Notes: generated by a model not told the origin, from the letters alone. DNA of 64,000 nucleotides from an uncultured Oleispira sp. (GCA_963933055.1 CAWVSY010000012.1:4194-68193), one strand, 5' to 3'; shown: positions 35,855 to 60,083, counted from the first letter of the stretch. Numbers and translations are program-made.

Positions 35855-35897
35855 TGAATAAAAAATTAACTAAAAGCGAATTAATGAAAGGCTAAAT

Positions 35898-37163
35898 ATG
35901 ATTTATATCAATGATGAACACTACGATAAAAATTATTTTGAGCAGTGTTACCAGAAGTTCAATCAGCATGACGTTCTAGGGAACGGCCAGGGTAAGCGCA
36001 TCACAGCTTGTATCAGCGATGCGGCCGTATGGATTGCGTTGTGTCTGTATGCTCGTGATCACGGAATATCGGTATTTCCTTTGCCAGCGGGTACTCCAGA
36101 AGAAGCATTACGCAGAAGAGCACAACTCAGTAGTAGTCACTACCAAGTGATGGCCGCTTCGATGGCGGAGCTGCTGACAAATATTGAAAAAATAAGTGAT
36201 CACGAAGATGACGTTGAACCTGTATTAGTGCAAATGAGCTCAGGCACAACAGGCGAGCCAAAGTGTATTAATCGCTCTTGGCTGAGTATTGATATCGAAT
36301 TGCAAAACTACATTGAGCACTTTACTGATTTGGCGGAAATGACCGCAGTCGTCGCATGTCCAGTGAATCATTCTTATGGTTTGATCTGCGGTATTTTAGC
36401 CAGTATTAAACGGGGTTCAGAGCCCGTGATTATTACTAACTTTAACCCTAAATATATTATTAAAAAGGTGCGTGAAACAACGACCCCTATCTTATATTCA
36501 TCCCCAGCATTGATCACTACGATCACCATGATGGTAAAAGCGGATCAGCCTATTCATGCCATTATGACGTCTGGCACCTTGATGCAGGCGACCTGGTTAG
36601 AGCAAGCCGCTAATAAATGTGAAAAATTGTATCAGCAATATGGCTGTTCGGAAGTAGGTTGTATCTCTTTGGGTGGAGATATTAAGTCTATTCATGATCA
36701 GGGGATGGTATTACCTCATCTTACTGTTAAGTCTGGATCTTCGGCAGAAGAACCACAAGAAATCATAGTGGCTATACAAGCTAGTACTACAGAAAATAAT
36801 ATTCGTGTTTCAACTCGCGATTTAGGTTTTCTGGATGCCAATAACCGTCTGCATTTTATTTCTCGCATCGATGAAATGATTAATGTGTCAGGACTTAATG
36901 TCTATCCCGCAGAAGTAGAAAAAGTGGTTATGGATATGCCAAATGTTAGCGATGCCGTGGTATTTAAAAAAAGCCACGCATTTGGTAATGACCAAGTATG
37001 TTTGCAGTTTATCGCTGAGCAAGAGATTGCTAACGAAGATATTCGCAGCTGGTGCAGCAAATATTTAAATAAATATCAGGTACCCCTACAGATTGCTCAA
37101 GTTGAAAAAATTGAGCGCTTACCTAACGGCAAGGTTAGTCGTAAAGCACTAGCGCTTGCATAA
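35898..37163 (+). CDS. asbC: 3,4-dihydroxybenzoate-AMP ligase, AsbC-like
   Basis: MSSGTTGEPK adenylation motif, QQYGCSEVG, TRDLG, NVSGLNVYP, LPNGKVSR; position in asb cluster. Confidence 0.88.
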   Translation: MIYINDEHYDKNYFEQCYQKFNQHDVLGNGQGKRITACISDAAVWIALCLYARDHGISVFPLPAGTPEEALRRRAQLSSSHYQVMAASMAELLTNIEKISDHEDDVEPVLVQMSSGTTGEPKCINRSWLSIDIELQNYIEHFTDLAEMTAVVACPVNHSYGLICGILASIKRGSEPVIITNFNPKYIIKKVRETTTPILYSSPALITTITMMVKADQPIHAIMTSGTLMQATWLEQAANKCEKLYQQYGCSEVGCISLGGDIKSIHDQGMVLPHLTVKSGSSAEEPQEIIVAIQASTTENNIRVSTRDLGFLDANNRLHFISRIDEMINVSGLNVYPAEVEKVVMDMPNVSDAVVFKKSHAFGNDQVCLQFIAEQEIANEDIRSWCSKYLNKYQVPLQIAQVEKIERLPNGKVSRKALALA

Positions 37164-37225
37164 ATAGGCGCTTGCATCAACGTCGGTATTTTTAAAGAAA
37201 AACGAATAACTAGATTGATAAAATT

Positions 37226-38521
37226 ATGATGACAAAAGAACAGATTGTTGAATCCCTATTCAAAGTATTAAGCGAGAACATGTCTCTGTTGAATATGGAT
37301 AAATTCCACAGCGATGCCCGTTTATTAGAAGACCTAGCATTAGATTCATCCATGGTATTGCACATGCTGATGTTGCTCGAAGTGGAGTATGAAATGGCGA
37401 TGGATGAAAATGCCTTAATGAATGAAGATTTTGAAACCGTACGAGCGGTTGCCAATATTTTATATGCAGGCCAAAACCTACCAAAGCATGAAAAGGGTCT
37501 TGAAGTTTATGAAGACGTTAAGATCCATTGTGTTGCTAGTAATTTGGCCGAAGTCGTAAAGCGTTTTCCACAATTAGATCATCGCATTTTGTATTTTGCT
37601 GTGTCCGACGCAAATGCCTGTATCGATGATCGTTTTGTTTTGACCTACCATAACGAAAATATCAATCACGATATTTTCTTTAACTGGTACGAGCGCCTTT
37701 ATGGAATGCCGATTCGTCCTTGGTATGACAAGCAAGCGAGCAAAGAACAGAACCTAGCGATATTAGAAACTCTGGTGCAGAAGCGAGCGCCTGGCCAGCA
37801 TATTTTAGTGATGTTAGACATGTTCCATTTACCTGAACGGGAGAATGAATTCAATAAAGATCCTTTTCCTCATTATGTCATGTTGGGACCGACCAATAAT
37901 CCTGATCTTTGGTTTATGTATGACCCAGATTATCGTTGGGAAGGTGTATTTAACAAAGATCGAATTTTAAACGCAGTGGCTCAGCCAACCGTATCCGGTG
38001 GTTATGTGTTTTCTGAACAAGGCGCGAGAGCAACTCCGGTTGAAGAAGTTATCGCTTTTTTTGACGCCTCTGTCGTGCCAGATGCTAATCCCGTTACGGA
38101 TATGATTCGCGCAATCATCACTGCTCACATTAACGGTGAAGATAAAAATGGCGAGCCGTTACCGCTAGAAAATTTAATCAAAGCGGTAGAAGAAATACCG
38201 GTTATGTCACCGCGTAAATACGCCTATGAACATGGCTTTGCATTTTTCTGGCGTGAGCTGGAGCTGCCAGAGCAAGAGTTTGACGATTGGTGTGATGTGA
38301 TTGATGAGTTAGCAAAAACCTACAAGCTGATTCAATTTAATGCCATGAAATTAGCGGTGACAAAAAAAGAAGCCTTTGCTGAAAAATTATTCCAGTTATT
38401 AGATCAGCAAGACGAAAGAGAATTCAAACTTAAGCAACGTTTAATTGAAGTGAAAGATAGTTGGGCAAAAACCATGCTCGAGCCGTCTGATACTCAGCAA
38501 CTAGAAGGGGCCTGTCTGTGA
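37226..38521 (+). CDS. asbDE: Fused aryl carrier protein (AsbD) plus AsbE-like amide ligase
   Basis: N-terminal about 85 aa carrier with LALDSS phosphopantetheine serine, then KIHCV...LDMFHLPERENEFNKDPFPHYVML typical of AsbE; single open frame. Confidence 0.82.
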   Translation: MMTKEQIVESLFKVLSENMSLLNMDKFHSDARLLEDLALDSSMVLHMLMLLEVEYEMAMDENALMNEDFETVRAVANILYAGQNLPKHEKGLEVYEDVKIHCVASNLAEVVKRFPQLDHRILYFAVSDANACIDDRFVLTYHNENINHDIFFNWYERLYGMPIRPWYDKQASKEQNLAILETLVQKRAPGQHILVMLDMFHLPERENEFNKDPFPHYVMLGPTNNPDLWFMYDPDYRWEGVFNKDRILNAVAQPTVSGGYVFSEQGARATPVEEVIAFFDASVVPDANPVTDMIRAIITAHINGEDKNGEPLPLENLIKAVEEIPVMSPRKYAYEHGFAFFWRELELPEQEFDDWCDVIDELAKTYKLIQFNAMKLAVTKKEAFAEKLFQLLDQQDEREFKLKQRLIEVKDSWAKTMLEPSDTQQLEGACL

Positions 38522-39381
38522 AATATTCCGTTTGCACCATTTCTTTCCGCCATCAGTTGATATCACTGGAACGCATTGCCAATTGGGCGAAAGCGCATCA
38601 GTTTGACGCGATTGAGCTGTGGGGCGTGCATGCCAAGAACCTTCGTCAATCACCAGATTTCACTCTAGAGAGTTTGGTCGAAAAAGGTTTGTCAGTATCA
38701 ATGGTCAGTGATTATTTGCCTTTAGACGGAGATCTAAAGGTTGCGTTAGAAGGCGCTAAATCACTGTGCACGATTACACGTTCTTGGGGGGCTAAAAAAT
38801 TACGTACTTTTTCTGGCAACAAACCCAGTGCAGGCATGAGTATGAGAGAACGAGCAGCCTGTACTAAGCGCTTGCGCGAATATTGCAAAATAGCAGCGGA
38901 CTATGGGGTTTATCTTATTGTTGAAACGCACCCCAATACATTAGCGGATACCTTGGCATCGACTCTTCAGTTAATTGAAGAAGTGAATCACCCGGCATTG
39001 CGTATTAATTTTGATGTGATCCATGTTTGGGAAATGGGCAGTGATCCGATCGTTGCACTCGATCAGCTCGCGCCTTTAATAGAGCACATGCATTTTAAAA
39101 ACATCACTCAACGTAATCTTTTGAATGTTTTTAATCCCGGTAATGTTTATGCCCCCGCAGGCACTCGTGAAGGTATGACGCCAATTTTCAACGGCGAATA
39201 CGATTTCAAGCAGTTCTTAGATTATTTGATGAAAGAGTCCGCTATACCGTGGCAAAACATGGATGCTTCGTTGGAGTGGTTCGGACCGGATGTCTTCACT
39301 ACTCTGGATAACGATCGTAAAGAACTCGCGAAACTGGAATCACACTTTATCCAACAGTCCCAGCCAGAGCTAACGATATGA
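38518..39381 (+). CDS. asbF: 3-dehydroshikimate dehydratase (3,4-DHB synthase)
   Basis: MKYSVCTISFRHQLIS...IELWGVHA, VETHPNTLADT, NFDVIHVWE, HMHFKNI; nearly identical start to Bacillus AsbF. Confidence 0.93.
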   Translation: MKYSVCTISFRHQLISLERIANWAKAHQFDAIELWGVHAKNLRQSPDFTLESLVEKGLSVSMVSDYLPLDGDLKVALEGAKSLCTITRSWGAKKLRTFSGNKPSAGMSMRERAACTKRLREYCKIAADYGVYLIVETHPNTLADTLASTLQLIEEVNHPALRINFDVIHVWEMGSDPIVALDQLAPLIEHMHFKNITQRNLLNVFNPGNVYAPAGTREGMTPIFNGEYDFKQFLDYLMKESAIPWQNMDASLEWFGPDVFTTLDNDRKELAKLESHFIQQSQPELTI

Positions 39382-40535
39382 AAATGAGCACACCTTATTA
39401 CCTAATTGATGAGACTCGCATGTTAAAGGCGATGGAACGTATCGCTTATGTGCGTGAGTGTAGTGGTGCCAAAAGTGTTCTCGCATTGAAATGTTTTTCT
39501 AGCTGGTGCGTATTTGATTTTATGAAGGACTATATGGCTGGAACAACGAGTAGTAGTTTATATGAAGCGCGTTTAGGTTATGAGAAATTTGGTGGCGAAA
39601 CCCATGGTTACAGTGTTGCTTATAGCGAAGATGAAATTCCTGAACTCGTTGAGTACTGCGACAAAGTTATTTTCAATTCGTTGAATCAATTAGAGCAATA
39701 CAAAGCGCAGGTAAAAGAAAAAGGCCGTTCAATTGGGCTGCGTATAAATCCAGAAGTAGGCCATTCCGAATACGGTTTAAGTGATACGGTTGCAAAATAT
39801 TCACGCCTCGGGGTACGTCACGATTTGTTGCCTGACAATATCACCGATGAAATTGAGGGTGCTATGTTTCACATGAATTGTGAAAACGATGACTTCACAA
39901 GCCTTAGTCAACAGCTGGATGAAATTGAACGCCGTTTTTCTACGATTCTGCCTAAGTTGAACTGGCTTAGTTTAGGCGGTGGTATTGCCTTTACCCGTGA
40001 TGGTTATGCATTGAATGCTTTATGTGGCCGCCTCAAATTATTAGCTGAAACTTATGACTTGCAAGTATACCTAGAACCAGGTGAAGCATCGGTCACTCAA
40101 TCCACTTCCCTTGTCGTTAAGGTATTAGACAAGGTAGACAACCAATTATCAACGTTGATCGTCGACGCCGGTGTTGAAACTCATTTGCTGGATGTATTGG
40201 TTTACAAGTTTACGCCTGAACTAGAAGGTGCAGAACCAATCGCAGAAGAAAATATAGAAGCCGCATTACAACAAGCGTTACAAGAAGGTAAGTCTGTTTA
40301 TCGTATTAGTGGACGTACCTGTTTGGCGGGTGATGTATTCGGAACCTATATTTTCAATCAAAAAGTTGAAATAGGGGATGAACTGAGATTCACCGATGTC
40401 GCTGGTTATTCCATGGTGAAGAAAAATTTCTTCAACGGAATCAAAATGCCCGCCATTTGCCATAAAAATATTCATGGAGAAACCCGCGTCATTCGCGAGT
40501 TTGATTACGAAGATTTTCGAGACTTTTTGTCTTAA
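39378..40535 (+). CDS. nspC: Carboxy(nor)spermidine decarboxylase
   Basis: TPYYLIDE, LALKCFS, SSLYEARLG, LSLGGG, YLEPGEA, TCLAGD, YSMVKKNFFNG. Confidence 0.93.
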   Translation: MKMSTPYYLIDETRMLKAMERIAYVRECSGAKSVLALKCFSSWCVFDFMKDYMAGTTSSSLYEARLGYEKFGGETHGYSVAYSEDEIPELVEYCDKVIFNSLNQLEQYKAQVKEKGRSIGLRINPEVGHSEYGLSDTVAKYSRLGVRHDLLPDNITDEIEGAMFHMNCENDDFTSLSQQLDEIERRFSTILPKLNWLSLGGGIAFTRDGYALNALCGRLKLLAETYDLQVYLEPGEASVTQSTSLVVKVLDKVDNQLSTLIVDAGVETHLLDVLVYKFTPELEGAEPIAEENIEAALQQALQEGKSVYRISGRTCLAGDVFGTYIFNQKVEIGDELRFTDVAGYSMVKKNFFNGIKMPAICHKNIHGETRVIREFDYEDFRDFLS

Positions 40536-40576
40536 CTTTTAGTCTGAGCTTTTTAAAAATTTGGGGGGAATATGTT

Positions 40577-41839
40577 ATGAAAAAGAACGTACTCATTATT
40601 GGCGCAGGTGCCGTAGGCGCAGTGGTTGCTCACAAGTGCGCACAGAGTAGCGATGTATTCGCATCCGTTTGCTTAGCTTCTAAAAATGTTGCTAAATGCG
40701 ATGCCATTATCGATTCAGTGAATAGAAAGAATTATCAAACGGTAGCAGGCTTTCAGTTCTATAGTCGAGAAGTGAACGCCGACAATACCGACGACTTGGT
40801 GACGTTGATTCGATCAACCGAAAGCCAGATCGTTATTAATGTCTGCACCGTCTTTGTCAATATGAATATTTTGGATGCTTGCTTAGAAACCGGTGCCGCT
40901 TATATCGATACGGCGGTTCATGAAGATTATAGTGTGATGAATGCACCGTATCCGTGGTATGCCAACTACGAATGGAAAAAGCGTGAATTATGCAAAAAGA
41001 AGGGGGTGACGGCTATTTTAGGCAGCGGTTTTGATCCTGGTGTCGTGAACGCTTATTGCGCTTATGCACAAAAACACGAATTCGATTCCATCGAAAGCAT
41101 CGATATTATGGATGTGAATGATGGCGACCATGGTCATTATTTCTCAACCAATTTTGACCCTGAAGTGAACCTGCGGGAAATCATTGAAGATGCGGGTTGC
41201 TTAGAAGATGGTCAATGGCGCACTTATCCACATCATAGCCGTTCGATGAATTACGATTTTCCTGAAGTGGGTGAGCACAAGTTGTATCTGATGGGACACG
41301 ACGAAGTGCATTCGTTATCGAAAAATATTCCTGGGGTAGAAACTGTACGCTTCTGGATGGGCTTTGGTGATCATTACTTAAAGTGTTTAGAAGTCTTCGA
41401 AAAAGTGGGGTTATTGAATCACGAAACGGTGACAACCAATAATGGTGAAAAAGTGATACCTCTACATACCTTGAAAGCTTGCTTGCCTGACCCTGCGAGT
41501 CTAGCGCCAAAATACAAAGGGAAAACCTGCATTGGCACATTGATTAAAGGTAAGCGCGATGGTCAGGATAAAGAACTGCTTGTTTATAACATCTGTGATC
41601 ATGAAGTAACGTATGCTGATATTGATTCTCAGGCCATCGCCTTCACCGCGGGTGTACCTCCGGTTGCCGCGGCTAAGCTGATTGCAAGTGGCGAATGGGA
41701 TGTTAAAGGCATGGTAAATGTAGAAGAGTTAGACCCCATTCCGTTCTTTGAGCGCTTAGCTGAAATGGGTATTTCTACCGAGGTTTACGACGTAAGTGCC
41801 GATAAAGACAGCCCTGCCAACAGAGTATTGTACGCTTAA
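40577..41839 (+). CDS. Carboxy(nor)spermidine dehydrogenase, copy 2
   Basis: IIGAGAVGAVVAHKCAQ, YIDTAVHED, GSGFDPG, FSTNFDPEVNLRE, GHDEVHSL, SQAIAFTAGVP. Confidence 0.9.
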   Translation: MKKNVLIIGAGAVGAVVAHKCAQSSDVFASVCLASKNVAKCDAIIDSVNRKNYQTVAGFQFYSREVNADNTDDLVTLIRSTESQIVINVCTVFVNMNILDACLETGAAYIDTAVHEDYSVMNAPYPWYANYEWKKRELCKKKGVTAILGSGFDPGVVNAYCAYAQKHEFDSIESIDIMDVNDGDHGHYFSTNFDPEVNLREIIEDAGCLEDGQWRTYPHHSRSMNYDFPEVGEHKLYLMGHDEVHSLSKNIPGVETVRFWMGFGDHYLKCLEVFEKVGLLNHETVTTNNGEKVIPLHTLKACLPDPASLAPKYKGKTCIGTLIKGKRDGQDKELLVYNICDHEVTYADIDSQAIAFTAGVPPVAAAKLIASGEWDVKGMVNVEELDPIPFFERLAEMGISTEVYDVSADKDSPANRVLYA

Positions 41840-43302: not shown

Positions 43303-46300
43303 CTAACGCTGACTCGAATCAGAATACTGTTCTACTCGATCACTTAAGTTATCCAATTCGGTGATCGCCTCAGTAATATCCGAATGGGCGAGCTGTGCTT
43401 TTGTAACAGCTTGTCCCCATTTTAAAGACAGGGTATTCAATGCTGTCAAAGACGTATTTATTTCAGCGATATAGCCATCAAGAATACCTTGCTGTTGCGC
43501 ATCACGTTGTAATCCAGATAATTTAGTCACTTCTGCCCATTGTTGAAAATTATCCAATACCGCTAATAATACCTGCTCACTGGCACCGCTATAACGAATG
43601 AAGGTCAGTTCATTTGGGCTTAAGCGTTCTGATAAAATCCATATGACCTTTTTATACTGCTCAATAACCTGGTTAAGTAATATTAAGCAAGTATGAGCAT
43701 TAAGCGAAACTAGGCTGCCTTCAATATCACGGGTTGTTTCGGCCAGCATCGGGTTGATTGATAATAACTTCATCCATAATCCCAGCTTTTTTGGACCTTC
43801 TAATTGCCCTAGCGTATTTTTCTCTTTGAGTGCTTTAAAGGCCTCATCAATACTGGATAAAACCTGCGATCGTTTAAAGCGCCAGCTAGTGACGCAAATT
43901 GGAATGATTGATAAGCCAGCACGTTCAAATATTTTATAGCGGCTTAGATGAAAGGCATCGGCTTCTTCACCGGCAAAGCCGACTAAATCTATTGCCAGTA
44001 CTTCACTTTCTTTCATCACAACCATGTCCATTTCTATGCCCGCAACAGGATAGTTTAATAGCACGTGGTAATCATCTGCGCGCAAATACGCAATTAAATC
44101 CTTAATGTCGTGATGGCGTTCGCGCTCGCAACGGATTTCAATGTTTTGTATTTTATCGACAGATAAAATGAATTTTTTAAGTAAACTTTTTTCAGGTAAC
44201 TGATCTTCAGGGCAAGAAAGGTAAATCAATTGCCGCTCACGAGCACGAGTAATCGAAACATTAAAGACATCGGTTCGATTAATATAATTAAAGCTTCCGG
44301 CAACGGAGTTATTATCGACCGCGCAAGAAATCAGCATGATATCTCGCTCTTCACCTTGAAACGCATACGGTGTGCCGCAGCGCAGTTTGTGCGCCATGAT
44401 TTCTTCAAGGTTAAAATGTTTAAAAATCTCATCTTGAATGTACTCTGCTTGAGCACGGAAAAACGACAGCACTCCAATAGACAGTTTATATTCGGCTGAA
44501 ACTTTTGATTGATCCAATACCAGTTGGCGAACTTTATTTAAAATGGCCTCAGCTTCTATAAGATTAATACCATTAAGGCGCTCGGCTTGTTCGACATGAA
44601 TAACAGCAATGGAATTTTTTGTTGTTAACGTCGGCTTCTCTGTCATTAGACGTAAGCGGCTATCATAAAAATTTTCATTACTAAAACGAATAATGTCGGG
44701 GGCGCTGCGATAATGTTCATTTAGCATAATAATTGAAGATTGCTGCTGAATATGACGCTGAGCTAAATCAATTAAACTATGATCACGGTAATTAATCTCG
44801 CGGCTCAAGCTATATTTTTCTGATAGCGCTTGCTGTTTGTTTTTTGATAAAAAAGAAATATGACGTAATTGCTTCGGATCTCCTACCACCATCGCGCGTT
44901 TAGCACGTTGTAAGGCCGGTAAACAGGAGGCGATATCGCACTGAGTCGCTTCATCAATAATCACCAAATCAAAAAGTTCAGAAATCAATGGCAGTGTTTT
45001 ATGCAGCCCTTCAAGAGAGCACAACCAAATCGGCATGCTTTCTAATAAAATAGAAAAATCCAAACCGGCCAAAATCTTTTCTTGGCGCGAAGAGGTACGA
45101 GCGCTTAAGGCTGACTTAAATCCGGTTAACTGGCGACGATGATGAAACAGAGTGTGATTAATTTTATTGGTCGCACTATGGTCAATATTTTTAGCTAATA
45201 AATCATCACGTTTTTTATGCAGATTCTGAATTTTCTTCAGACTCTCTTGTAGCAGTCCTTGGCTATTAGAATAGCGTTGGCTCCACCACAATCTAACCTG
45301 CTTTAACCAGCGAAAATTGCCTAGACCCGATTCAAGCTGATGCAATAATTCGCCTTCATGTTCGGCACGTCTAAAGCGCTTAATTAATTCGGCTTCGGCC
45401 ATCCGTAAATCATTATTAACCTGATTCAATGATTTTTTTAACTGAGAGCCTGACGGGCTGCGCTCTTTCGATAACGTATTCTTATGCGATTTTTCTTGCA
45501 GGATGTGATCTAAATGCTGTTTTAGTTCGCGGTGATAACCTTTTGTTCCTGCACGCATGATCGAGGATTGGCTTAAACCAAAGGTCTCTGTGATTTTATC
45601 TTTAATAACATCAATTGCATGTTCATTTTTAGAAACAATTAATACAGACTCGCCTTGCATGAAACGCTCTAACGCTAAACAGGCAATGGTATAGCTTTTA
45701 CCTGTGCCAGGAGGGCCAATCAATAAACTAAACTCAGACTCTGCCGCGCAGGTTAATGCTTCTTTTTGAGCGTTGCTTAAAATACCAGGAATGAGCTGAT
45801 GATTTGCCGGTTTAACATTATGAAATTCACTAGCAAGATCAGCGCCTAAGCTTAATTGCAGCGGTTTAGAAAATTGATCTTCAGCCGCGAGCAAAGACAG
45901 CTCGTCTAAAATCCCCCGAGTGGATATTGATTTTTCAACAACCGCACACGCATCCATCGCGACTAAATAATAATGGCCAAGTTCGATTCCCTTAAATGCT
46001 TTATTAAAAGACGCTTTGTCATGAAACTCAGCCGTGCTTAAAGTAATTGGGATATCGGGGTTAGACGCTGATAGCCGCTCTATAATCGCATCATGTTGAG
46101 TTTGAATATTGTCTGTACTGTTCGCCGAAAAGGCATCTTTTAATGCTTTTTCGTTTGGCCATAGGCTTAATGCAAAGTTGTTCACACTGAGCGATGAGGT
46201 ATCAAGCACTTGCTGTTTTTCTAACGATGCTTCAAAACTGAACAAAGGCGCGCAAACAGTCGATACTGTTGTTTTTCCATAGCGGTTACTTTTTTGCTTA

Positions 46301-46533
46301 CCAATAATAAAGTAAGAAAAATGGCGAAAACTTTTCTCTCGGCGATAACTTTCAATAATGGGTAAAACAGTATTGCGATAATCGTCCGGAACCTGCAAAG
46401 ATCCCGCAGGGCTAAATAAAAGCTGTTCAACTTTGCTGGAAAAGATACTTCCCAATTCATGGCGGCCATTATCGCTCTCAAAACATTCGTGTAAGAAAGC
46501 AATAGCCGCAGCGGTAGTAGAATTAACAGACAT
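43303..46533 (-). CDS. DNA2/NAM7 (Upf1-like SF1) helicase with restriction-endonuclease-like domain and C-terminal helical domain
   Basis: GPPGTGKS, IIDEATQ, VGDPKQL, LNEHYRS, YAFQGEERD, FNVSITRAR; then a Vsr/DUF559-like segment (YPVAGIEMDMVV...AIDLVG); then about 156 aa of helical tail. Confidence 0.88.
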   Translation of the reverse strand: MSVNSTTAAAIAFLHECFESDNGRHELGSIFSSKVEQLLFSPAGSLQVPDDYRNTVLPIIESYRREKSFRHFSYFIIGKQKSNRYGKTTVSTVCAPLFSFEASLEKQQVLDTSSLSVNNFALSLWPNEKALKDAFSANSTDNIQTQHDAIIERLSASNPDIPITLSTAEFHDKASFNKAFKGIELGHYYLVAMDACAVVEKSISTRGILDELSLLAAEDQFSKPLQLSLGADLASEFHNVKPANHQLIPGILSNAQKEALTCAAESEFSLLIGPPGTGKSYTIACLALERFMQGESVLIVSKNEHAIDVIKDKITETFGLSQSSIMRAGTKGYHRELKQHLDHILQEKSHKNTLSKERSPSGSQLKKSLNQVNNDLRMAEAELIKRFRRAEHEGELLHQLESGLGNFRWLKQVRLWWSQRYSNSQGLLQESLKKIQNLHKKRDDLLAKNIDHSATNKINHTLFHHRRQLTGFKSALSARTSSRQEKILAGLDFSILLESMPIWLCSLEGLHKTLPLISELFDLVIIDEATQCDIASCLPALQRAKRAMVVGDPKQLRHISFLSKNKQQALSEKYSLSREINYRDHSLIDLAQRHIQQQSSIIMLNEHYRSAPDIIRFSNENFYDSRLRLMTEKPTLTTKNSIAVIHVEQAERLNGINLIEAEAILNKVRQLVLDQSKVSAEYKLSIGVLSFFRAQAEYIQDEIFKHFNLEEIMAHKLRCGTPYAFQGEERDIMLISCAVDNNSVAGSFNYINRTDVFNVSITRARERQLIYLSCPEDQLPEKSLLKKFILSVDKIQNIEIRCERERHHDIKDLIAYLRADDYHVLLNYPVAGIEMDMVVMKESEVLAIDLVGFAGEEADAFHLSRYKIFERAGLSIIPICVTSWRFKRSQVLSSIDEAFKALKEKNTLGQLEGPKKLGLWMKLLSINPMLAETTRDIEGSLVSLNAHTCLILLNQVIEQYKKVIWILSERLSPNELTFIRYSGASEQVLLAVLDNFQQWAEVTKLSGLQRDAQQQGILDGYIAEINTSLTALNTLSLKWGQAVTKAQLAHSDITEAITELDNLSDRVEQYSDSSQR

Positions 46534-46552
46534 AAAACCAACAGGCCTAAAA

Positions 46553-47698
46553 CTAAGTCAAATCTAATAGAATTTGATTGTGCTCTGTGTCACTTGCACC
46601 TAAAGCAGCCAAGCTGGAATCCATCTGAGCGGTTAACTCGCTCATTTCGCTGATGGAGTGCGACATCGCAGGGATGGCCTCACGGCGAAAACGACTAATA
46701 TCGTCAATAGTAATTAGAATACTTTCAAAAGATTGCTTTAGATTATTGATATCCAGCTGTGCAGAAGCCGCTTGCTTATGAATATCGCCTGCTTGCTGCT
46801 TTAAGGCTTGGGAGGTTTGAGCAATCAAATCGTCGGTTGTGGCATTAATCGCACTAATGCTATCAGAGATATTCTTTTGTGACTGCAAAGCAATCGCCAA
46901 AGATGCGGCGATATTCAGTGCCGATACCGTCACATTTAATGCTCTTGATACCCCTCTGATTAATTCACGATTATTTTTAATGATAATGTCTGAAGTTAAA
47001 ATGCCTTGTTGATTCACCGCCAGCTGCTGTTGCAAGTCTAAAGTACGTTGCTTCAAGGAAAATAACAGCTCTTCTTCAATAAACTTACGCTGCTCAGGGC
47101 TAATGCTATTATCAGATGATAAGCGCTGACTGATTTTTTCATCGAGTAAAATGCAAAAGCTTAGATAATCTTTCAGCTGAAAAACCAGCTCTTTCATCTC
47201 AACTTGGTCTTGGCTTAGCGTCACATTATCGCGTTCCAGCTGAGATTGGCCATCTTTCAGGTCTTTCACAATCCCTTGAATGATACTGTCTACCGTTTGA
47301 AACTTTGCAAACCAACGAGAAATCGGCGTGCCAATAGCGGGTATTTTCGCTAACCAACGGCGTAAACCACTCATATTAAAATCAACCTTATTAGGATTGA
47401 TTTTATACGTTTGCTCTTGCAACGCGATTAACGAATGGCTAACCGACCCTTCTTTAGACTCACTCACCAACTTAGCTAAAGGCTGCTTTAACAAATGGCT
47501 GCGCTTAGCCAGCTGCTGCTGAACGCCAACCCCAAGCTTTCTAATGGCGATAGAATGTTGCTGTAAGTTGCTAACATCTTGCATGTCTAAATGAAAAAAT
47601 TGATTTACTAATGTTTCTGATTGTTCTTCTAGCTTAGAAGCGGTCTGAGGGGAAAGGGCGGTGATCTCTGCTGAGGTGCCAGTAATCTGAGTCGACAT
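46553..47698 (-). CDS. telA: Toxic anion resistance protein TelA/KlaB family
   Basis: Coiled-coil; GQSQLERDNVTL, QRTLDLQQQLAVNQQGILTSDIIIKNNRELIRGVSRA..VTVSAL; start ATG 47698 after AAGGA. Confidence 0.88.
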   Translation of the reverse strand: MSTQITGTSAEITALSPQTASKLEEQSETLVNQFFHLDMQDVSNLQQHSIAIRKLGVGVQQQLAKRSHLLKQPLAKLVSESKEGSVSHSLIALQEQTYKINPNKVDFNMSGLRRWLAKIPAIGTPISRWFAKFQTVDSIIQGIVKDLKDGQSQLERDNVTLSQDQVEMKELVFQLKDYLSFCILLDEKISQRLSSDNSISPEQRKFIEEELLFSLKQRTLDLQQQLAVNQQGILTSDIIIKNNRELIRGVSRALNVTVSALNIAASLAIALQSQKNISDSISAINATTDDLIAQTSQALKQQAGDIHKQAASAQLDINNLKQSFESILITIDDISRFRREAIPAMSHSISEMSELTAQMDSSLAALGASDTEHNQILLDLT

Positions 47699-47903
47699 TC
47701 TAAGTTCCTTCTTAAGGCATATAATCAATACATAGGGGTGAATATAGATAAATAGGGTCGCAATTATACCTGCTAATTACTGATGATTGAATAATTAATA
47801 AACAGACGTGTGTCTAGTTTCTAATACAAAAAAATGCTACATTCTGGCAAAATTATTTACCTCGTTAGCCAACGCAAAACAAGCCACGACAAGGAACCGT
47901 CTT

Positions 47904-50900
47904 ATGCTCAAACGCTCATTCTTTTGGATAGCATCAGCACTCTTATTGCAACTAACATTTTTGCAGATATCCGGCTGTAGCGACTCATCAAATACGGAAG
48001 CCTCAAAGCCCGCGAAAGAGGCAACGGTCATTTCGCAACAGAATAACCCTTGGCTGCAGGTTTTGCGCTCGCATACTACGGGGCAGCTATCACGATTTGG
48101 CAGTATTGACCTGCACTTCAATCAAGACCTTCCTAAAAGCCAAGAACTTGCACAAAATTCACAACTGGCTCAGCAATTATTAAGCTTTGAACCCGCTATC
48201 GAAGGCACCGCGACCTTAGTTAATAAGCGTCACTATCGCTTTACGCCTACGCAGCCATTGCCATCGGGCCAAGCGTATAGCGCAACGCTATCAGCACAAG
48301 CGGTTGCGTTGACTCAAGAAGGTAGCGAAGATTTTGTCTTTAACTTCAATGTTATTGAACAAGCCTTCGAAATAAAAATGAACGGCTTAGAAGTTAACCA
48401 AGATGGCAGCATGAAGCTGCAAGGCGAGTTAAATACCGCAGACGTTACCGTGATAGACGACATCAAACACATTATTAGCGCGAGCGTTCAAAATCAGAGC
48501 TTAAACGTCGATTGGGAAAAAGAAACAAAAGCACAAAAACAACACCGCTTCACCATCAACAATATTCAACGTAAAGACAGCGCAGCCATACTCATCGTTA
48601 AATGGAATGGTGCGGATATCAATGTTGCATCAACAGGAGAGCGCAAATTTGAAGTTCCTGCGTTAGGCCAGTTTGTTGTCTCATCGATTGTCGCCTTGCA
48701 AGGCAGCGATCAAACCATTGAAATAAACTTTTCAGAACCTTTATTGAAAAAACAAAACCTAAAAGGTCTGATTCAAGTATCAACGGGGACGGTTAAAACC
48801 CGCATCGAAGAAGCCAAAATCACCCTATACCCTAGCAGTGTGATTAGCGGCGAATTTGAAATAACGCTGGATTCGAATATTAAAAATGCCCAAGGTTTTA
48901 ACTTAGGAAAATCATTCTCTGAAACCTTGCACTTTTTAAGTAAAAAACCTGCGGTACGCTTTACTGGCCAAGGCAATATTTTGCCGATTAGTGATAAGTT
49001 AAGTATTCCTTTTGAAGCCACCAATGTTGATTCCATTCAAGTGACGGCCTTTCAAATACAAGAACATAGCATGCCGCAGTATTTTCAAGAGAACCAACTG
49101 AATACAACCTATAACTTGCACCGTGTAGGGCGTCATATTTGGCGTAAAACCGTGCAGTTAAAAACCCCCGTTGCCGACCAATGGAATCGCTTTAACTTAG
49201 ATGTTCGCCAGCTGGTACTGGATAACCCAGGCAGCTTGTTCCGCTTTGAATTGTCGATTAACCGCTCCAATTCCATTTTGACCTGCTCTGAAGCCGATAA
49301 TAATATTCCGGTTACAAAAGAAAATGCGCCGAGTAATTATGAAGATGAATACATCAGTGAAAGCAGCGCTTGGGATGGTATAGAAGGGTATTACGGTCAG
49401 AATCAAAATACATCAATCAGCTGGAATGATAGAGAAAACCCTTGTCGAGACGGTTTTTATCAATACGGCAGCCAAATAAAAGATCAAAGAAACTTCATTG
49501 CTAGCAACATCGGCTTAATCGCTAAAAAAGGCGAAGATAACCAGCTAGTGGTTATTGCAACCGAGCTGAGCAGTGGTTTGCCGTTGCCTGCCGCGCAGAT
49601 AGAAATCCGTAATTTTCAAAACCAAACCATTGCCTCGGAGACTACCGATAACAATGGTTTTGCCGAAGTTGCCTTAAACAGCACCCCGTTTTTGATTGTT
49701 GCAAGCACGCATAATAGCCATCAAGACAGCGGCCCTAAAGATATTGGTTATTTAAAAATTAACAAAGCTCAAGCCATTTCAACCAGCCACTTTAATGTGG
49801 GTGGCAAGGTGGTTAAAGACGGTATTAAAGCGCAAATTTATACCGAACGTGGGGTATGGCGACCAGGGGATAAAATCTTTTTAACCGTCGTGATTGAAGA
49901 TAAAGCGGATCAAATACCTGATAATCACCCACTCATGTTAGAACTGATTAACCCAAAAAATCAGCGTGTTAGCGTACAAGTCAATGCCAAACCCGTGGGT
50001 GGTTTGTATGCATTTACCTTAGAAACCGCCGAAGAAGACGAAACCGGAAACTGGAAAGCCATCGCGAGTCTGGGTAGCTTAAAGTTTGAGCACAATATTA
50101 AGATTGAAATGGTGAAACCCAACCATCTAAAAATGAACATGGATCTTGCGAGTGACGATATTCGTGCTTATCAAGTAGGGCGTTATGGCAGTGATGCCAA
50201 ACTTGAAGGTGAGTTTTTCTCGCAGTGGTTGCACGGTGCAAAAGCTTCCGGTTTAAAAACAATTTTAAACTTATCGATGTCGCCACAAAAAACCCGTTTT
50301 GATACCTACAACGACTTTAAATTTGACGATCCGGCAAAAGAATTCCGCAGCCAAAACGATGAAATTGCTACTTTCGAATTGGATAACGACGGCAAAGCCA
50401 ACGTCAGTGCAGACATTAACATCGCCTCCTTACCCGCGGGCAAATTACGCGGCAGCTTAACCAGTCGTGTCTTTGAACCGAGCGGTGATTTTAGTATTGC
50501 TAAGCAAAGTTTAGACATTCACCCGTACCAGCACTATGTCGGCATGCAAATGCCAAAAGGCGATGCTGCGCGCGGCATGTTATTAACCGATCAAAAACAC
50601 CCCGTTGAATTGGTCGTGGTTGATGCCGATGGCAAACCCCTACAAGGTAAGCAAAAGCTTCACCTAACCTTGTACAAATTATCGTGGAAATGGTGGTGGG
50701 ATAGCAGCAGTGATGATCAGCTAGCCAACTACGTTAGCCGCCATTCCAATAGCATACTTAAGCAAGAAGACATTGATATAAGCAATGGCCAAGGCCAGTG
50801 GAAATTTGAAGTAAAATACCCAGATTGGGGTCGTTACATGATTCGTGCTTGTGATAAAAAAGGCCTGCATTGTACTGGCCAAGTATTCTACATGGACTGG

Positions 50901-53588
50901 CCTGGCTGGGCAGGGCGCGATCAAAAAAGCAAAGGTTTAGGTGCCAATACCCTGAGCTTAAGTGCTGATAAAGAACAATACATTGTCGGCGAAACAGCGA
51001 TTGTTTCTTTACCTGAAGCCGCCAGTGGCCGAGCGTTAGTCTCGATCGAAAATGGCAGCCAAGTGATCGATTATTATTGGGTTAAATTGTCGGAAGTCGG
51101 TTCGCAATTACACATTCCAATTACCAATGCAATGACCCCCAATGCCTATGTTTCGGTCAGCGTGATTCAAGCCCATGCGAATAAAAAGAACGACGAACCG
51201 ATTCGTCTGATGGGTATTTTACCGTTAACCGTCACCGACCCAGCAACACACCTTAAGCCGCAGTTAACCATGGTTAGCGAAGTTGAACCTGAAAGCACAT
51301 TAACGGTTGAAGTGAACGAAGCCACGGGCCGCAGTTTTAACTATACCTTAGCGGTAGTGGATGAAGGCCTATTAGGGCTCACCCAATTTAGAACCCCTGA
51401 TTTGCACAAAGGCTTTTATAAAAAAGAAGCCTTGGGCGTTAAAACCTGGGATCTATACGACAGTGTTGTGGGTGCTTATGGCGCCGAACTCGAACAACTA
51501 TTAGCCATTGGTGGTGATGGTGACTTGGGTGGCAAAGACAATGAAAATGACGAACGTCGTTTCCCTCCGGTTGTTCGATTCTTAGGGCCGTTCCATTTAG
51601 AACAAGCCGAAGTCGCGCAGCATAAAATCGACATTCCACAATACCTCGGCGCTGTACGCGTCATGTTGGTTGCCGCTAAAGACGGTGCTTATGGTCGCAG
51701 CGAAAAAGAAGTTTTAGTACGTAAACCACTCAACGTATTAGCGACCTTGCCACGCGTATTAGGCAAAGACGAAACACTGCAAATGCCGATTACGCTATTC
51801 ACCAGCGACGATAGCATCAACAACGTCAGTATCACGGTGAAAGCCGACGACAAAATTGTGCTACTGAAAAGCGAGTTGAATGTTGAATTTGATAAAGCCG
51901 GTGAGCGCATGGTTTTTGTGCCGATGCGAGCCTTAAAACTGGGCAGCAGCAAAGTCGAAATTGTTGCTACGGCGACCACCGCGACGTCTGAATTCAGCGC
52001 GCAGCAAACCATTCATATTCCTGTGAATGCACAAACTTTACCTGAAAAACGTTTTAAAATGGCCAAGATCGAAGCCGGACAACGTTGGAATAATCAGGCC
52101 GAATTGTTTGGTATTGACGGTACGCAAAATGTTGAACTTGAATTCACCACCATGCCGCCAATGAATCTGCAAAACCACTTGCAGTATTTATTAGGCTACC
52201 CTCATGGCTGTGTTGAACAGACAACCTCAAAAGCGTTGCCGCAGTTATTCTTGCCAGAATTAACCAACCTTAATGAAGAGCAACTATTAACCAGCCAAAA
52301 CAACATTGCCGCCGCGATTGATAAACTCAGCCGCCATCAAGCCAGCTCGGGTGGTTTTAGCTACTGGCCAGGTATTGGCAATGTTAACGATTGGTCTACC
52401 AGTTACGCCGGACACTTTTTATTATTGGCGAAAGATCATGGCTACGACGTGCCAGAAAAAATGTTAACGGATTGGAAAATTAATCAAAGCCGCGCCGCCC
52501 GAGCATGGACGGCCAGCGCTTCCAATAACCGCAGTCATATCAATTCTTATAAGGCGCAAGCCTATCGCTTATTCACCTTAGCGGTGGCAGGCAATAGTGA
52601 AATCGGAGCGATGAACCGCTTCCGCCAAAAACAAGACCTTGATAATTTATCGCGCTGGTTATTAGCCGCCGCCTATCAATTAGCGGGGCAGCAACAAGCC
52701 GCCGCGACATTAGCCGCGACGGCACAATTGGATATGAATGATTACGTAGTAAGTGACTACAGCTTTGGCTCAACCTTGCGTGACGAAGCCATGTTACTAA
52801 TGAGTTTGCTGGTATTAAACGACAGTGATAATAGCGCCAATCTTGCTGAAAAAATCAGTCAGCAACTGGTCGCAGATAACCGTCGATACAGCACACAAAC
52901 CACCGCATTTTCATTATTAGCCATGGCGGCGTATAGCGAAAAAAATCAAAGCAATAATAGTAACGTGAGCATTAACTGGCAGCAAAACGAACAGACGCTG
53001 GTATTGGAAAAAGCCATTAACCTAATGCCGCTGAATTTGCCGCCACGAAATCAAGGCGCGCTTGATCTAGACGTTAGCGTTCACAATAACGGCAGCGTCC
53101 CTGTTTATGCCCAACTGATGAGTGAAGGTATTCCAGAACTAGGACAAGAGCAGCCGTACAGTCACGAGCTGGCATTAGACGTAAAATACTTTGATGGGGC
53201 GAAAGAACGCGACAGAAATGCCATCGATCTTAATACCTTAACTCAAGGCCAAGATATTCTAGTAGTGGTTAATGTGACGAATAACAGTATTCACCCGATT
53301 GAGCATCTTGCGTTAACCGTACCGGTCGCCTCGGGTTTTGAAATTCGTAATACCGATGCTTTAGATGCGGTTAATACCAGCAACAACCTTTACGATTATC
53401 AAGATATTCGTGATGACCGTATTTACAGCTATCTCAAGCTGGCGGTCGGCGAACGTAAAACCCTAGAGTTTAGAATTAACGCCACGTACCAAGGTCGTTA
53501 TTATCAACCTGCGGTCATGATTAACGACATGTACGACGAAACCCGAGCAGCGCGTAATACAGGACACTGGGTTGAAATTGCACGCTAA
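47904..53588 (+). CDS. yfhM: Bacterial alpha-2-macroglobulin lipoprotein
   Basis: Lipobox ISGC, YTERGVWRPGD, AVVDEGLLGLT, thioester motif YPHGCVEQ, YQDIRDDR; start ATG 47904 after AAGGA. Confidence 0.95.
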   Translation: MLKRSFFWIASALLLQLTFLQISGCSDSSNTEASKPAKEATVISQQNNPWLQVLRSHTTGQLSRFGSIDLHFNQDLPKSQELAQNSQLAQQLLSFEPAIEGTATLVNKRHYRFTPTQPLPSGQAYSATLSAQAVALTQEGSEDFVFNFNVIEQAFEIKMNGLEVNQDGSMKLQGELNTADVTVIDDIKHIISASVQNQSLNVDWEKETKAQKQHRFTINNIQRKDSAAILIVKWNGADINVASTGERKFEVPALGQFVVSSIVALQGSDQTIEINFSEPLLKKQNLKGLIQVSTGTVKTRIEEAKITLYPSSVISGEFEITLDSNIKNAQGFNLGKSFSETLHFLSKKPAVRFTGQGNILPISDKLSIPFEATNVDSIQVTAFQIQEHSMPQYFQENQLNTTYNLHRVGRHIWRKTVQLKTPVADQWNRFNLDVRQLVLDNPGSLFRFELSINRSNSILTCSEADNNIPVTKENAPSNYEDEYISESSAWDGIEGYYGQNQNTSISWNDRENPCRDGFYQYGSQIKDQRNFIASNIGLIAKKGEDNQLVVIATELSSGLPLPAAQIEIRNFQNQTIASETTDNNGFAEVALNSTPFLIVASTHNSHQDSGPKDIGYLKINKAQAISTSHFNVGGKVVKDGIKAQIYTERGVWRPGDKIFLTVVIEDKADQIPDNHPLMLELINPKNQRVSVQVNAKPVGGLYAFTLETAEEDETGNWKAIASLGSLKFEHNIKIEMVKPNHLKMNMDLASDDIRAYQVGRYGSDAKLEGEFFSQWLHGAKASGLKTILNLSMSPQKTRFDTYNDFKFDDPAKEFRSQNDEIATFELDNDGKANVSADINIASLPAGKLRGSLTSRVFEPSGDFSIAKQSLDIHPYQHYVGMQMPKGDAARGMLLTDQKHPVELVVVDADGKPLQGKQKLHLTLYKLSWKWWWDSSSDDQLANYVSRHSNSILKQEDIDISNGQGQWKFEVKYPDWGRYMIRACDKKGLHCTGQVFYMDWPGWAGRDQKSKGLGANTLSLSADKEQYIVGETAIVSLPEAASGRALVSIENGSQVIDYYWVKLSEVGSQLHIPITNAMTPNAYVSVSVIQAHANKKNDEPIRLMGILPLTVTDPATHLKPQLTMVSEVEPESTLTVEVNEATGRSFNYTLAVVDEGLLGLTQFRTPDLHKGFYKKEALGVKTWDLYDSVVGAYGAELEQLLAIGGDGDLGGKDNENDERRFPPVVRFLGPFHLEQAEVAQHKIDIPQYLGAVRVMLVAAKDGAYGRSEKEVLVRKPLNVLATLPRVLGKDETLQMPITLFTSDDSINNVSITVKADDKIVLLKSELNVEFDKAGERMVFVPMRALKLGSSKVEIVATATTATSEFSAQQTIHIPVNAQTLPEKRFKMAKIEAGQRWNNQAELFGIDGTQNVELEFTTMPPMNLQNHLQYLLGYPHGCVEQTTSKALPQLFLPELTNLNEEQLLTSQNNIAAAIDKLSRHQASSGGFSYWPGIGNVNDWSTSYAGHFLLLAKDHGYDVPEKMLTDWKINQSRAARAWTASASNNRSHINSYKAQAYRLFTLAVAGNSEIGAMNRFRQKQDLDNLSRWLLAAAYQLAGQQQAAATLAATAQLDMNDYVVSDYSFGSTLRDEAMLLMSLLVLNDSDNSANLAEKISQQLVADNRRYSTQTTAFSLLAMAAYSEKNQSNNSNVSINWQQNEQTLVLEKAINLMPLNLPPRNQGALDLDVSVHNNGSVPVYAQLMSEGIPELGQEQPYSHELALDVKYFDGAKERDRNAIDLNTLTQGQDILVVVNVTNNSIHPIEHLALTVPVASGFEIRNTDALDAVNTSNNLYDYQDIRDDRIYSYLKLAVGERKTLEFRINATYQGRYYQPAVMINDMYDETRAARNTGHWVEIAR

Positions 53589-60000: not shown

Positions 60001-60083
60001 TGCTAGCGTTACATGATTAATGTGTCTGCAGCGAACATTGTTGTTAAGAATAGCTTATCTATCAGATAAGAGAGCAAAAGCAA

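What the first reader, a model, noticed from the sequence alone, without database searches (positions are those of the whole stretch)
43303..47698. telA operon whose partner is an SF1 helicase-nuclease fused to a TelA-partner-like helical domain: candidate undescribed defence or stress system
Seen: telA is followed after 19 nt by a 1076-aa protein with all SF1 helicase motifs, a Vsr/DUF559-like nuclease segment, and a roughly 156-aa helical tail (43303-43773; LSERLSPNELTFIRYSGASEQVLLAVLDNF). Established: TelA usually pairs with a small helical partner (xpaC-yaaN in Bacillus, klaA-klaB on IncP plasmids); Upf1-like helicase-nuclease fusions and Ter/Tel proteins are often linked to anti-phage or anti-plasmid defence. 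Inference: the tail resembles, from my recollection of telA-neighbour proteins, that partner, so a nucleic-acid-degrading module may be physically tethered to a TelA membrane or stress complex. I know of no named system with this architecture.
Basis: partly seen in the sequence, partly recalled or inferred. Interest (0 to 1): 0.82.

Follow-up and report, generated by a model that had tools for sequence, protein, structure and literature searches.

The report
TelA paired with partner-domain helicase-nuclease
A gene for the poorly understood membrane-stress protein TelA sits beside a DNA/RNA-unwinding and cutting enzyme whose tail is a soluble copy of TelA's usual membrane partner, a conserved and apparently undescribed pairing that gives a testable clue to what TelA does.

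Summary
telA (46553-47698, minus strand) is followed after 19 nt by a 1076-aa protein. That protein has an unassigned N-terminal domain, a complete Upf1/Senataxin-like SF1B helicase core, a weak REase_MTES_1575 nuclease match and a helical tail of about 160 aa.

A profile of the tail finds hundreds of unannotated stand-alone proteins of about 260 aa, each with two N-terminal membrane helices followed by the same helical domain. Wherever I could see their flanks, they lie next to telA.

Tail-bearing helicases form one clade (support 98) inside a large family of tail-less helicases of about 900 aa. telA is adjacent in 15 of 22 tail-bearing loci, in three gene orders and in lineages that the sources name differently. 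It is adjacent in 0 of 150 tail-less loci. Genomes whose tailed helicase lacks an adjacent telA carry telA elsewhere with the stand-alone partner. This genome has one telA and no stand-alone partner.

The partner family matches no Pfam or NCBIfam model. Its relation to XpaC is inconclusive, and KlaA could not be tested.

The tail is most likely a TelA-docking adaptor. Physical binding and the biological role (defence or stress response) remain inferred. I found no published description.

The parts
46553..47698 (-). telA (381 aa from the ATG at 47698; the ORF could also start at the TTG at 47728)
   Evidence: It matches PF05816 TelA at E 5.7e-59, 200 bits against a cut-off of 30. It is the only TelA in the genome. 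M1 is invariant among helicase-linked TelAs.
46534..46552 (-). 19-nt spacer between the telA stop and the helicase start, which suggests co-transcription
   Evidence: ORF coordinates. The terminator scan found no site in the spacer, and the scan as a whole was not above chance.
43303..46533 (-). Gene for the 1076-aa SF1B helicase-nuclease with a TelA-partner-like tail
   Evidence: It is single-copy in the genome. The full-length model has pLDDT 81, and its best structural matches are Senataxin/Sen1, UPF1, IGHMBP2, Aquarius and Dna2.
45784..46533 (-). N-terminal domain (residues 1-250), mixed alpha/beta, family unassigned
   Evidence: No Pfam or NCBIfam hit. It is conserved in long and short forms, with invariant C17, D21, Y63, R65, E66, R206, G207 and E211.
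44227..45774 (-). SF1B helicase core (residues 254-769) with a long helical insertion at about residues 362-500
   Evidence: AAA_11 and AAA_12 match. The helicase motifs are invariant. Secondary structure comes from the model.
43843..44100 (-). Restriction-endonuclease-fold segment (residues 812-897), REase_MTES_1575-like
   Evidence: PF18741 scores 25.8 bits, below its cut-off of 38.2. The same family is on record for several homologues. D836 is invariant and D849 nearly invariant.
43306..43788 (-). C-terminal helical tail (residues 916-1076), homologous to the cytoplasmic domain of the stand-alone two-TM TelA partner family; shared ELT(F/Y)xRY motif
   Evidence: Tail alignment A2. The model has pLDDT 85. 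The profile search finds the stand-alone family. hhalign to the pAM7 telA neighbour gives 97%. The stand-alone-family HMM hits this tail at E 1e-24 to 1e-26.

Best explanation
telA and the downstream gene form a conserved two-gene module. The second protein is a Upf1/Senataxin-like SF1B helicase with a restriction-endonuclease-fold nuclease. Once in its history this helicase acquired a soluble copy of the cytoplasmic helical domain of TelA's usual two-TM membrane partner, as a C-terminal tail. The tail most likely works as a TelA-docking adaptor. On this model TelA binds it as it binds the stand-alone partner, so the helicase-nuclease is recruited to TelA or gated by it. TelA is a presumed sub-membrane envelope-stress protein. 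The most likely output is stress- or invasion-triggered unwinding and cleavage of nucleic acid. Shown here: the architecture, the homology of the tail to the telA-linked partner family, the single origin of the tail, and the conserved adjacency. Inferred: physical binding, the direction of control, the substrate and the biological role.
For: The tail profile recovers a large family of unannotated proteins of about 260 aa with the same domain after a hydrophobic stretch of about 45 residues. These proteins flank telA in L172, L178, L179, L181, L182 and L183. All 20 tail-bearing helicases form one clade (SH-aLRT 98) on a tree built without the tail. That clade is nested among 142 tail-less forms. 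telA is adjacent in 15 of 22 tail-bearing loci, in three arrangements: upstream on the same strand, downstream on the same strand (L130), and convergent (L167-L169). The source names include Oceanospirillaceae, Cellvibrionaceae, Nitrincola, Spirochaetales and an unclassified bacterium. telA is adjacent in 0 of 150 tail-less loci, of which 112 have at least 1.3 kb on both sides. L082 keeps a 37-aa telA remnant just upstream of the helicase, which points to secondary loss. G000, G690, G692 and G693 each have a single telA, next to the helicase, and no stand-alone partner. G691 has two telA genes, one beside each kind of partner. The four genomes with an orphan tailed helicase carry telA together with the stand-alone partner elsewhere. 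The TelA tree repeats three sub-clades of the helicase tree. In Enterococcus faecium the phenotype of an xpaC deletion depends on intact telA, so TelA and its membrane partner interact functionally there (PMC6811118).
Against: There is no direct evidence of binding, because no multimer prediction was available. Seven of 22 tailed helicases lack an adjacent telA, so the tail can persist without the operon link, although telA was present elsewhere in all four such genomes that I could check. The tail shows no detectable similarity to TelA itself or to any solved structure, so its fold gives no functional hint. The nuclease match is below Pfam's cut-off.
Confidence: 0.6

Rival explanations
1. It is an anti-phage or anti-plasmid defence system. 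TelA senses membrane perturbation during DNA entry, or acts as a membrane effector. The tail-docked helicase-nuclease then degrades invading or host nucleic acid. This is a specific biological reading of the best explanation, not a contradiction of it.
For: The helicase core gives partial hits to models of defence helicases: PADLOC PDC-S37, MkoC/MkoA and Hhe, and NCBIfam ProA, PLuB and Hhe. Other sub-clades of the same helicase family pair with a PLD-type nuclease, a partner-swapping pattern common among defence genes. The pair sits in varied genomic contexts, once next to RadC and an integrase. Ter/TelA components have been proposed to act against phage entry (PMC7824862). A TIR-STAND gene and a C5 methylase lie about 10 kb away in the window.
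Against: All defence-model hits cover only the generic helicase or nuclease core and lie far below the curated cut-offs, for example ProA at 156 bits against 1500. TelA matches no PADLOC model. The immediate neighbours here and in most loci are housekeeping or metabolic genes. The alpha-2-macroglobulin gene next to telA is also there in the Oleispira relative L001, so the locus looks stable rather than island-like.
Confidence: 0.35
2. It is an envelope-stress-coupled housekeeping function. TelA reports membrane or toxic-ion stress and recruits a Senataxin/Upf1-like helicase-nuclease to process the cell's own RNA or DNA, for example R-loops, stalled transcripts or membrane-proximal damaged DNA.
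For: The closest structures are RNA/DNA-processing helicases (Senataxin/Sen1, UPF1, IGHMBP2, Dna2). The context is chromosomal, single-copy and housekeeping-like, with conserved local synteny in the genus. TelA and XpaC are linked to envelope-stress regulons and to tolerance of cell-envelope antibiotics (PMC3498285; PMC12791056; PMC6811118).
Against: The distribution is patchy. Tail-like domains were found in only 8 of 300 sampled gammaproteobacterial genomes, and two of those eight matches are helicase tails. Repeated loss of adjacency also fits an accessory role better than a core one. A restriction-endonuclease-fold domain is unusual for transcript surveillance.
Confidence: 0.25
3. The tail is only an oligomerisation or autoregulatory helical bundle and does not touch TelA. 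On this view the adjacency reflects co-regulation or shared ancestry of a mobile cassette.
For: The fold is a generic helical bundle with no specific structural match. Seven tailed helicases function, presumably, without an adjacent telA.
Against: The same domain, with the same conserved ELTxxRY and LDN motifs, is the hallmark of a stand-alone family that always flanks telA. The tail was gained once, and telA adjacency is found only in the tailed clade. Adjacency survives three different gene orders. All four telA-less loci whose genomes I could check have telA elsewhere in the genome.
Confidence: 0.12

Closest known systems
XpaC-TelA (YaaN) pairs of Bacillota (B. subtilis xpaC-yaaN, Listeria lmo1966-lmo1967, E. 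faecium xpaC-telA) and proteobacterial PF10112-telA pairs
   Same: In both cases a TelA gene is immediately linked to a gene whose product has an N-terminal membrane hairpin and a cytoplasmic helical domain. In 12 of 12 alphaproteobacterial PF10112 loci a telA lies directly next to the PF10112 gene. The stand-alone relatives of the tail have the same architecture and the same neighbour.
   Different: The tail and its stand-alone relatives do not match PF10112. Profile-profile similarity to XpaC-like proteins is 39% for the stand-alone family and 0.1% for the tail. In this locus the partner domain has no membrane anchor and is fused to a helicase-nuclease of about 900 aa.
Unnamed stand-alone two-TM TelA partner family (for example the 257-aa hypothetical protein upstream of telA on Vibrio rotiferianus pAM7, and L173-L183)
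   Same: The C-terminal helical domain is homologous. HMMER gives E 1e-14 to 1e-36 in both directions and hhalign gives 97%. The motifs ELT(Y/F)xRY, (L/I)DN and a C-terminal Y are shared, and so is adjacency to telA of the same TelA subfamily.
   Different: The stand-alone proteins carry two predicted membrane helices and nothing else. The window protein replaces the anchor with an N-terminal domain, a helicase and a nuclease.
Upf1-like SF1B helicases with a C-terminal REase_MTES_1575 nuclease (annotated 'DNA2/NAM7 family helicase'), including the defence proteins Mokosh MkoA/MkoC, Hhe, ProA and PDC-S37
   Same: The helicase core (AAA_11 plus AAA_12) and a restriction-endonuclease-fold C-terminal module are shared. 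The structural neighbours are Senataxin, UPF1, IGHMBP2 and Dna2.
   Different: Scores are far below the family cut-offs, and only the core aligns. None of those families is described with a TelA partner or a TelA-partner domain. The nearest true relatives are the short forms of about 900 aa, which lack the tail and lack telA.
RK2/RP4 kilA operon (klaA - klaB/telA - klaC/telB)
   Same: It is a TelA homologue encoded with small partner proteins. This rests on my own knowledge and was not tested here.
   Different: KlaA could not be retrieved for comparison. IncP plasmids did not appear among the plasmid hits to this TelA. The kilA operon contains no helicase or nuclease.

Membership tests
TelA / toxic anion resistance protein (Pfam PF05816) | Full-length match to the TelA profile above the gathering score | tested here: met
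   200.3 bits against a cut-off of 30; profile positions 11-331 of 332 are matched.
SF1B Upf1-like / DNA2-NAM7 helicases | AAA_11 and AAA_12 halves with intact Walker A, motif II (DEATQ) and motif VI, and a Upf1-like fold | tested here: met
   AAA_11 scores 98 bits and AAA_12 scores 83 bits. The motifs are invariant in 22 homologues. Foldseek top hits are Senataxin, UPF1, IGHMBP2, Sen1, Aquarius and Dna2 at E 1e-16 to 5e-21.
REase_MTES_1575 (PF18741) nuclease domain | Match above the gathering score, and conserved acidic catalytic residues | tested here: inconclusive
   25.8 bits, below the cut-off of 38.2. The family is on record for several close homologues. D836 is invariant and D849 nearly invariant. 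Catalytic competence was not tested.
XpaC / Halogen_Hydrol (PF10112) | Sequence match of the tail to the XpaC profile | tested here: not met
   No hit at E<=5 for the tail or for 14 stand-alone relatives. hhalign of the tail against 12 XpaC-like proteins gives 0.1%; the stand-alone family against them gives 39%, E 3e-4.
XpaC / Halogen_Hydrol (PF10112) | N-terminal membrane hairpin | tested here: not met
   The helicase has no segment with Kyte-Doolittle 19-residue hydropathy of 1.6 or more.
Stand-alone two-TM TelA partner family (unnamed, no Pfam or NCBIfam model) | C-terminal helical domain with the ELTxxRY and LDN motifs | tested here: met
   The tail profile finds the family (586 hits at E<=1e-10). 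The family HMM finds the tail (E 1e-24 to 1e-26). hhalign gives 97%.
Stand-alone two-TM TelA partner family (unnamed, no Pfam or NCBIfam model) | Two N-terminal transmembrane helices, total length about 250-290 aa | tested here: not met
   The window protein has 1076 aa and no hydrophobic segment. The stand-alone members have a hydrophobic stretch at about residues 27-74.
Stand-alone two-TM TelA partner family (unnamed, no Pfam or NCBIfam model) | Encoded next to telA | tested here: met
   19-nt gap in the window. telA is adjacent in 15 of 22 tailed-helicase loci.
Known defence helicases (Mokosh MkoA/MkoC, Hhe, ProA, PLuB, PDC-S37) | Full-length match above the curated cut-off | tested here: not met
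   ProA scores 156 bits against 1500, Hhe 96 against 2000, and PLuB 97 against 999. The PADLOC hits cover only the core.
KlaA of the IncP kilA operon | Sequence or profile similarity of the tail to KlaA | not testable with these tools
   The RK2 record is not in the plasmid collection, and no IncP hit appeared with this TelA.

The most novel reading that the evidence does not exclude
The helical domain of the TelA partner is a portable adaptor that plugs different effectors into TelA. In most bacteria it is anchored in the membrane. In this clade it hands TelA's signal, membrane or envelope perturbation such as phage DNA entry, to a helicase-nuclease. That would make a previously unrecognised two-gene, membrane-triggered system for degrading nucleic acid, and it would give the first mechanistic role for TelA as a sensor or scaffold.
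Probability: 0.3. Interest if true: 0.82.

Novelty: new variant of a known kind. Interest (0 to 1): 0.68.

Why it matters
TelA has been known since the RK2 kilA work, and later as a tellurite and cell-envelope-antibiotic tolerance factor, but it still has no mechanism. This locus adds three things. First, it identifies a large unannotated partner family, with no Pfam or NCBIfam model, that accompanies one TelA subfamily. Second, it shows that the partner's cytoplasmic domain can be detached from its membrane anchor and fused to an enzyme while the telA linkage is kept. That is the signature of a protein-protein docking module, and it marks a conserved ELTxxRY surface to mutate. Third, it links TelA to nucleic-acid processing for the first time. 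The pair is small (two genes, 4.4 kb), soluble apart from any TelA membrane association, and easy to clone. TelA-tail binding and a phage, plasmid or stress phenotype can therefore be tested directly.

Tried and rejected
1. Tail as a TelA-like domain: hhalign of the tail against TelA gave 0.6% probability. Rejected.

2. Tail against solved structures: sequence search gave only coiled-coil noise at E>=0.017. Foldseek against the PDB gave nothing below E 0.19 and TM-scores of 0.42 or less.

3. TelA against the PDB by sequence: no hit.

4. Tail and stand-alone partners against Pfam, NCBIfam and PADLOC: no family found.

5. XpaC relation: no XpaC in the Bacillus record first tried. XpaC-like proteins were then fetched from Pseudomonadota and the comparison was inconclusive.

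6. KlaA: the accession is not held.

7. Word-index search with the stand-alone family returned only nine proteins, all called 'hypothetical' or given an unrelated name.

8. Promoter and terminator scans were not above chance.

10. The Anantharaman, Iyer and Aravind 2012 paper on Ter systems is not held.

11. Literature searches for TelA together with a helicase found nothing relevant.

12. Chance adjacency is rejected by the counts and by the three gene orders.

13. A stand-alone tail ORF next to short-form helicases (a split version of the fusion) was not found in 150 loci.


Full report
**What is there**

On the minus strand, a 391-codon ORF (46553-47728) is followed after 19 nt by a 1076-codon ORF (43303-46533). 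The likely start of the first ORF is the ATG at 47698.

The first product is a full-length TelA: PF05816, E 5.7e-59, 200 bits against a cut-off of 30.

The second product has four parts:
- Residues 1-250 match no family.
- Residues 254-769 carry AAA_11 and AAA_12, the two halves of Upf1-like SF1B helicases.
- Residues 812-897 give a sub-threshold match to the restriction-endonuclease-fold family REase_MTES_1575 (25.8 bits against 38.2).
- The last 160 or so residues match nothing in Pfam or NCBIfam.

In an alignment of 22 homologues, Walker A, DEATQC, VGDxKQL, FQGEER and TRAR are invariant or nearly so, D836 is invariant and D849 is nearly invariant. A full-length AlphaFold model (pLDDT 81) finds Senataxin/Sen1, UPF1, IGHMBP2, Aquarius and Dna2 as best structural matches at E down to 5e-21. 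The gene is single-copy, and telA is the only TelA in this 3.55-Mb genome.

**Two forms of the helicase**

Database homologues fall into two length classes. The long class is about 1070-1130 aa and covers 99% of the query. The short class is about 890-935 aa and stops right after the nuclease domain.

I collected 160 loci from genomes and metagenomes and 13 more around individual long-form proteins. A tail HMM hits only the long forms. No separate tail ORF was found in any of the 170 loci scanned (169 plus the window).

On a maximum-likelihood tree built from the core region without the tail, all 20 tail-bearing sequences form one clade (SH-aLRT 98). That clade is nested among 142 short forms. 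The tail was therefore gained once.

**The telA link**

I ran an HMM built from helicase-linked TelAs over every ORF of the first 170 loci. For L200-L203 I used the Pfam calls given with the loci.
- Tail-bearing loci with readable flanks: telA is adjacent in 15 of 22.
- Short-form loci: telA is adjacent in 0 of 150. Of these, 112 have at least 1.3 kb on both sides.
- A naive Fisher test gives p = 1e-15. Related sequences are not independent, so this overstates the case.

The stronger argument is that adjacency survives three gene orders:
- telA upstream on the same strand (this window and 10 others);
- telA downstream on the same strand (L130);
- telA convergent, 0-73 nt from the helicase stop (L167-L169).

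The pairs come from sources that name them Oleispira, Cellvibrionaceae, Nitrincola, Spirochaetales and an unclassified bacterium. L082 retains a 37-residue telA fragment directly upstream of its helicase, a footprint of secondary loss. TelA and helicase trees share the sub-clades (window, L001, L081), (L083, L165) and (L167-L169).

**What the tail is**

The tail is not TelA-like (hhalign 0.6%). It resembles no solved structure by sequence or by fold, although the model is confident (pLDDT 85, pTM 0.72; best Foldseek E 0.19).

The decisive result came from running the 19-tail profile over 1.84 billion representative proteins. There were 1023 hits at E<=0.001 and 586 at E<=1e-10. Apart from long helicases and their fragments, the listed hits are stand-alone proteins, mostly of 250-290 aa, in which the domain occupies the C-terminal 150-170 residues.

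Thirty of these proteins align well. They share with the tail the motif ELT(Y/F)xRY...AEQV...(L/I)DN and a C-terminal helix ending in Y. They begin with a hydrophobic stretch of about 45 residues, consistent with two membrane helices. They match no Pfam or NCBIfam model, and where a source names them they are 'hypothetical'.

**The stand-alone family is a telA neighbour**

- The 257-aa hypothetical protein directly upstream of telA on Vibrio rotiferianus plasmid pAM7 matches the tail profile at 97% probability, E 1e-10.
- In a sample of 300 gammaproteobacterial genomes the family was found in six. All five loci with enough flank have telA immediately beside it.
- The four genomes whose tailed helicase lacks an adjacent telA (Hahella, Arenicella and two MAGs) each have telA elsewhere, and there it sits next to a stand-alone partner.
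- Conversely G000, G690, G692 and G693 have one telA, next to the helicase, and no stand-alone partner.
- G691 has two telA genes, one beside each kind of partner.

In every genome examined, each telA of this subfamily has a partner domain encoded next to it, either membrane-anchored or fused to the helicase. One divergent second telA, in G001 (L177), lies next to neither, and its neighbours were not examined.

**Relation to XpaC and KlaA**

PF10112 (XpaC) proteins from 12 alphaproteobacterial genomes all have a divergent telA directly beside them. The architecture 'two-TM helical protein plus TelA' is therefore general.

HMMER sees no similarity between PF10112 and the new family or the tail. 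hhalign gives 39% (E 3e-4) for the stand-alone family, aligned over the membrane hairpin and a DLTxxRKYL / ELTYxRYL stretch, and 0.1% for the tail alone. I call this inconclusive. KlaA could not be obtained.

**How it most likely works**

Shown:
- a complete helicase;
- a probable nuclease;
- a tail homologous to TelA's partner domain;
- a single origin of the tail;
- conserved telA adjacency.

Inferred: the domain is the surface through which partners bind TelA, so the fusion docks the helicase-nuclease onto TelA or places it under TelA's control. In E. faecium the xpaC deletion phenotype needs intact telA (PMC6811118), which shows functional coupling between TelA and its partner in at least one system.

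The helicase has no membrane segment and this genome has no anchored partner. TelA has one borderline hydrophobic stretch, at residues 263-281.

**Defence or stress**

For defence:
- weak core similarity to Mokosh, Hhe, ProA and PDC-S37 helicases;
- partner swapping within the helicase family (PLD nuclease in 10 loci, alpha/beta hydrolase in 7);
- variable contexts;
- the proposal that Ter/TelA components block phage entry (PMC7824862).

Against defence:
- all those hits are far below the cut-offs;
- TelA is not in PADLOC;
- the neighbours here are siderophore genes, DUF3817, and an alpha-2-macroglobulin with PBP1C;
- the macroglobulin gene next to telA is also there in the Oleispira relative.

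I put defence at about 0.35, stress-coupled nucleic-acid processing at about 0.25, and a tail unrelated to TelA binding at about 0.12.

**Novelty**

Full-text searches for TelA together with a helicase or with anti-phage terms found nothing describing this. Earlier notes of this scan list several TelA operons with XpaC-like partners, but none with a helicase.

I rate it a new variant of known kinds, namely TelA-partner modules and Upf1-like helicase-nucleases. Its value is that it exposes a portable TelA-docking domain and an unannotated partner family.

**Limits**

- Only 22 tailed loci could be examined.
- The samples were chosen by similarity to the query.
- No multimer prediction, expression data or experiment was available.

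Noticed in passing
window 57475-61639: An 841-aa TIR plus STAND-NTPase protein (57475-60000) lies in a low-GC patch (GC 0.32 at 58-60 kb). Next to it is a C5 cytosine DNA methylase (60326-61639). Together they look like a small defence island about 10 kb from the telA pair.
   Followed up: no
window 47808-55911: A 1926-aa bacterial alpha-2-macroglobulin is followed by a PBP1C-type penicillin-binding protein, and the pair is divergent from telA. A macroglobulin-sized gene (1911 aa) sits next to telA in the Oleispira MAG L001 as well.
   Followed up: partly
window 32020-41839: There is a run of same-strand genes for an IucA/IucC-type siderophore synthetase, an AMP-binding enzyme, DUF6005, a TIM-barrel protein, a PLP decarboxylase and a saccharopine dehydrogenase. 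It is probably an NRPS-independent siderophore or polyamine-derived cluster.
   Followed up: no
L053, L070, L074-L076, L080, L133, L134, L139 (Pseudomonas clade) and L032 (Schleiferiaceae): Short-form helicases of the same family have a PLD-like nuclease (PLDc_2) of about 229 aa immediately upstream, often with overlapping stop and start. This is a second conserved two-gene arrangement for the helicase family.
   Followed up: partly
L012, L025, L092, L097, L099, L101, L104 (Colwellia-like); L166 (Desulfobacterales long form): An alpha/beta-hydrolase of about 222 aa lies directly upstream of the helicase in Colwellia-like short forms. A similar 224-aa hydrolase precedes the long form in L166.
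   Followed up: no
L003:11503-11907, L163:8222-8650, L201:7299-7781: A small GNAT acetyltransferase recurs just downstream of tailed helicases in three unrelated loci. A GNAT also lies upstream on the opposite strand in L033.
   Followed up: no
L082:7864-7974: A 37-residue fragment, 51% identical to TelA residues 142-178, lies in the 318-nt spacer upstream of a tailed helicase. It is an apparent remnant of a deleted telA.
   Followed up: partly
L182:1489-2799 and L183:1486-2442: These are variants of the stand-alone partner with longer N-terminal membrane regions (436 aa with several hydrophobic segments, and 318 aa). Both are still next to telA.
   Followed up: no
L172 (Vibrio rotiferianus pAM7, 178122-189243): On this plasmid the partner-telA pair closes a same-strand run of OmpA-family, vWA-domain and phosphate-binding/OmpA genes. 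The run resembles an envelope-spanning cluster.
   Followed up: no
L171 (Bacillus sp. N5-665 record NZ_CP093325.1): A record of 5.5 Mb is labelled as a plasmid. It carries a TelA followed by a DUF3974 protein instead of XpaC, and it contains no PF10112 gene.
   Followed up: no
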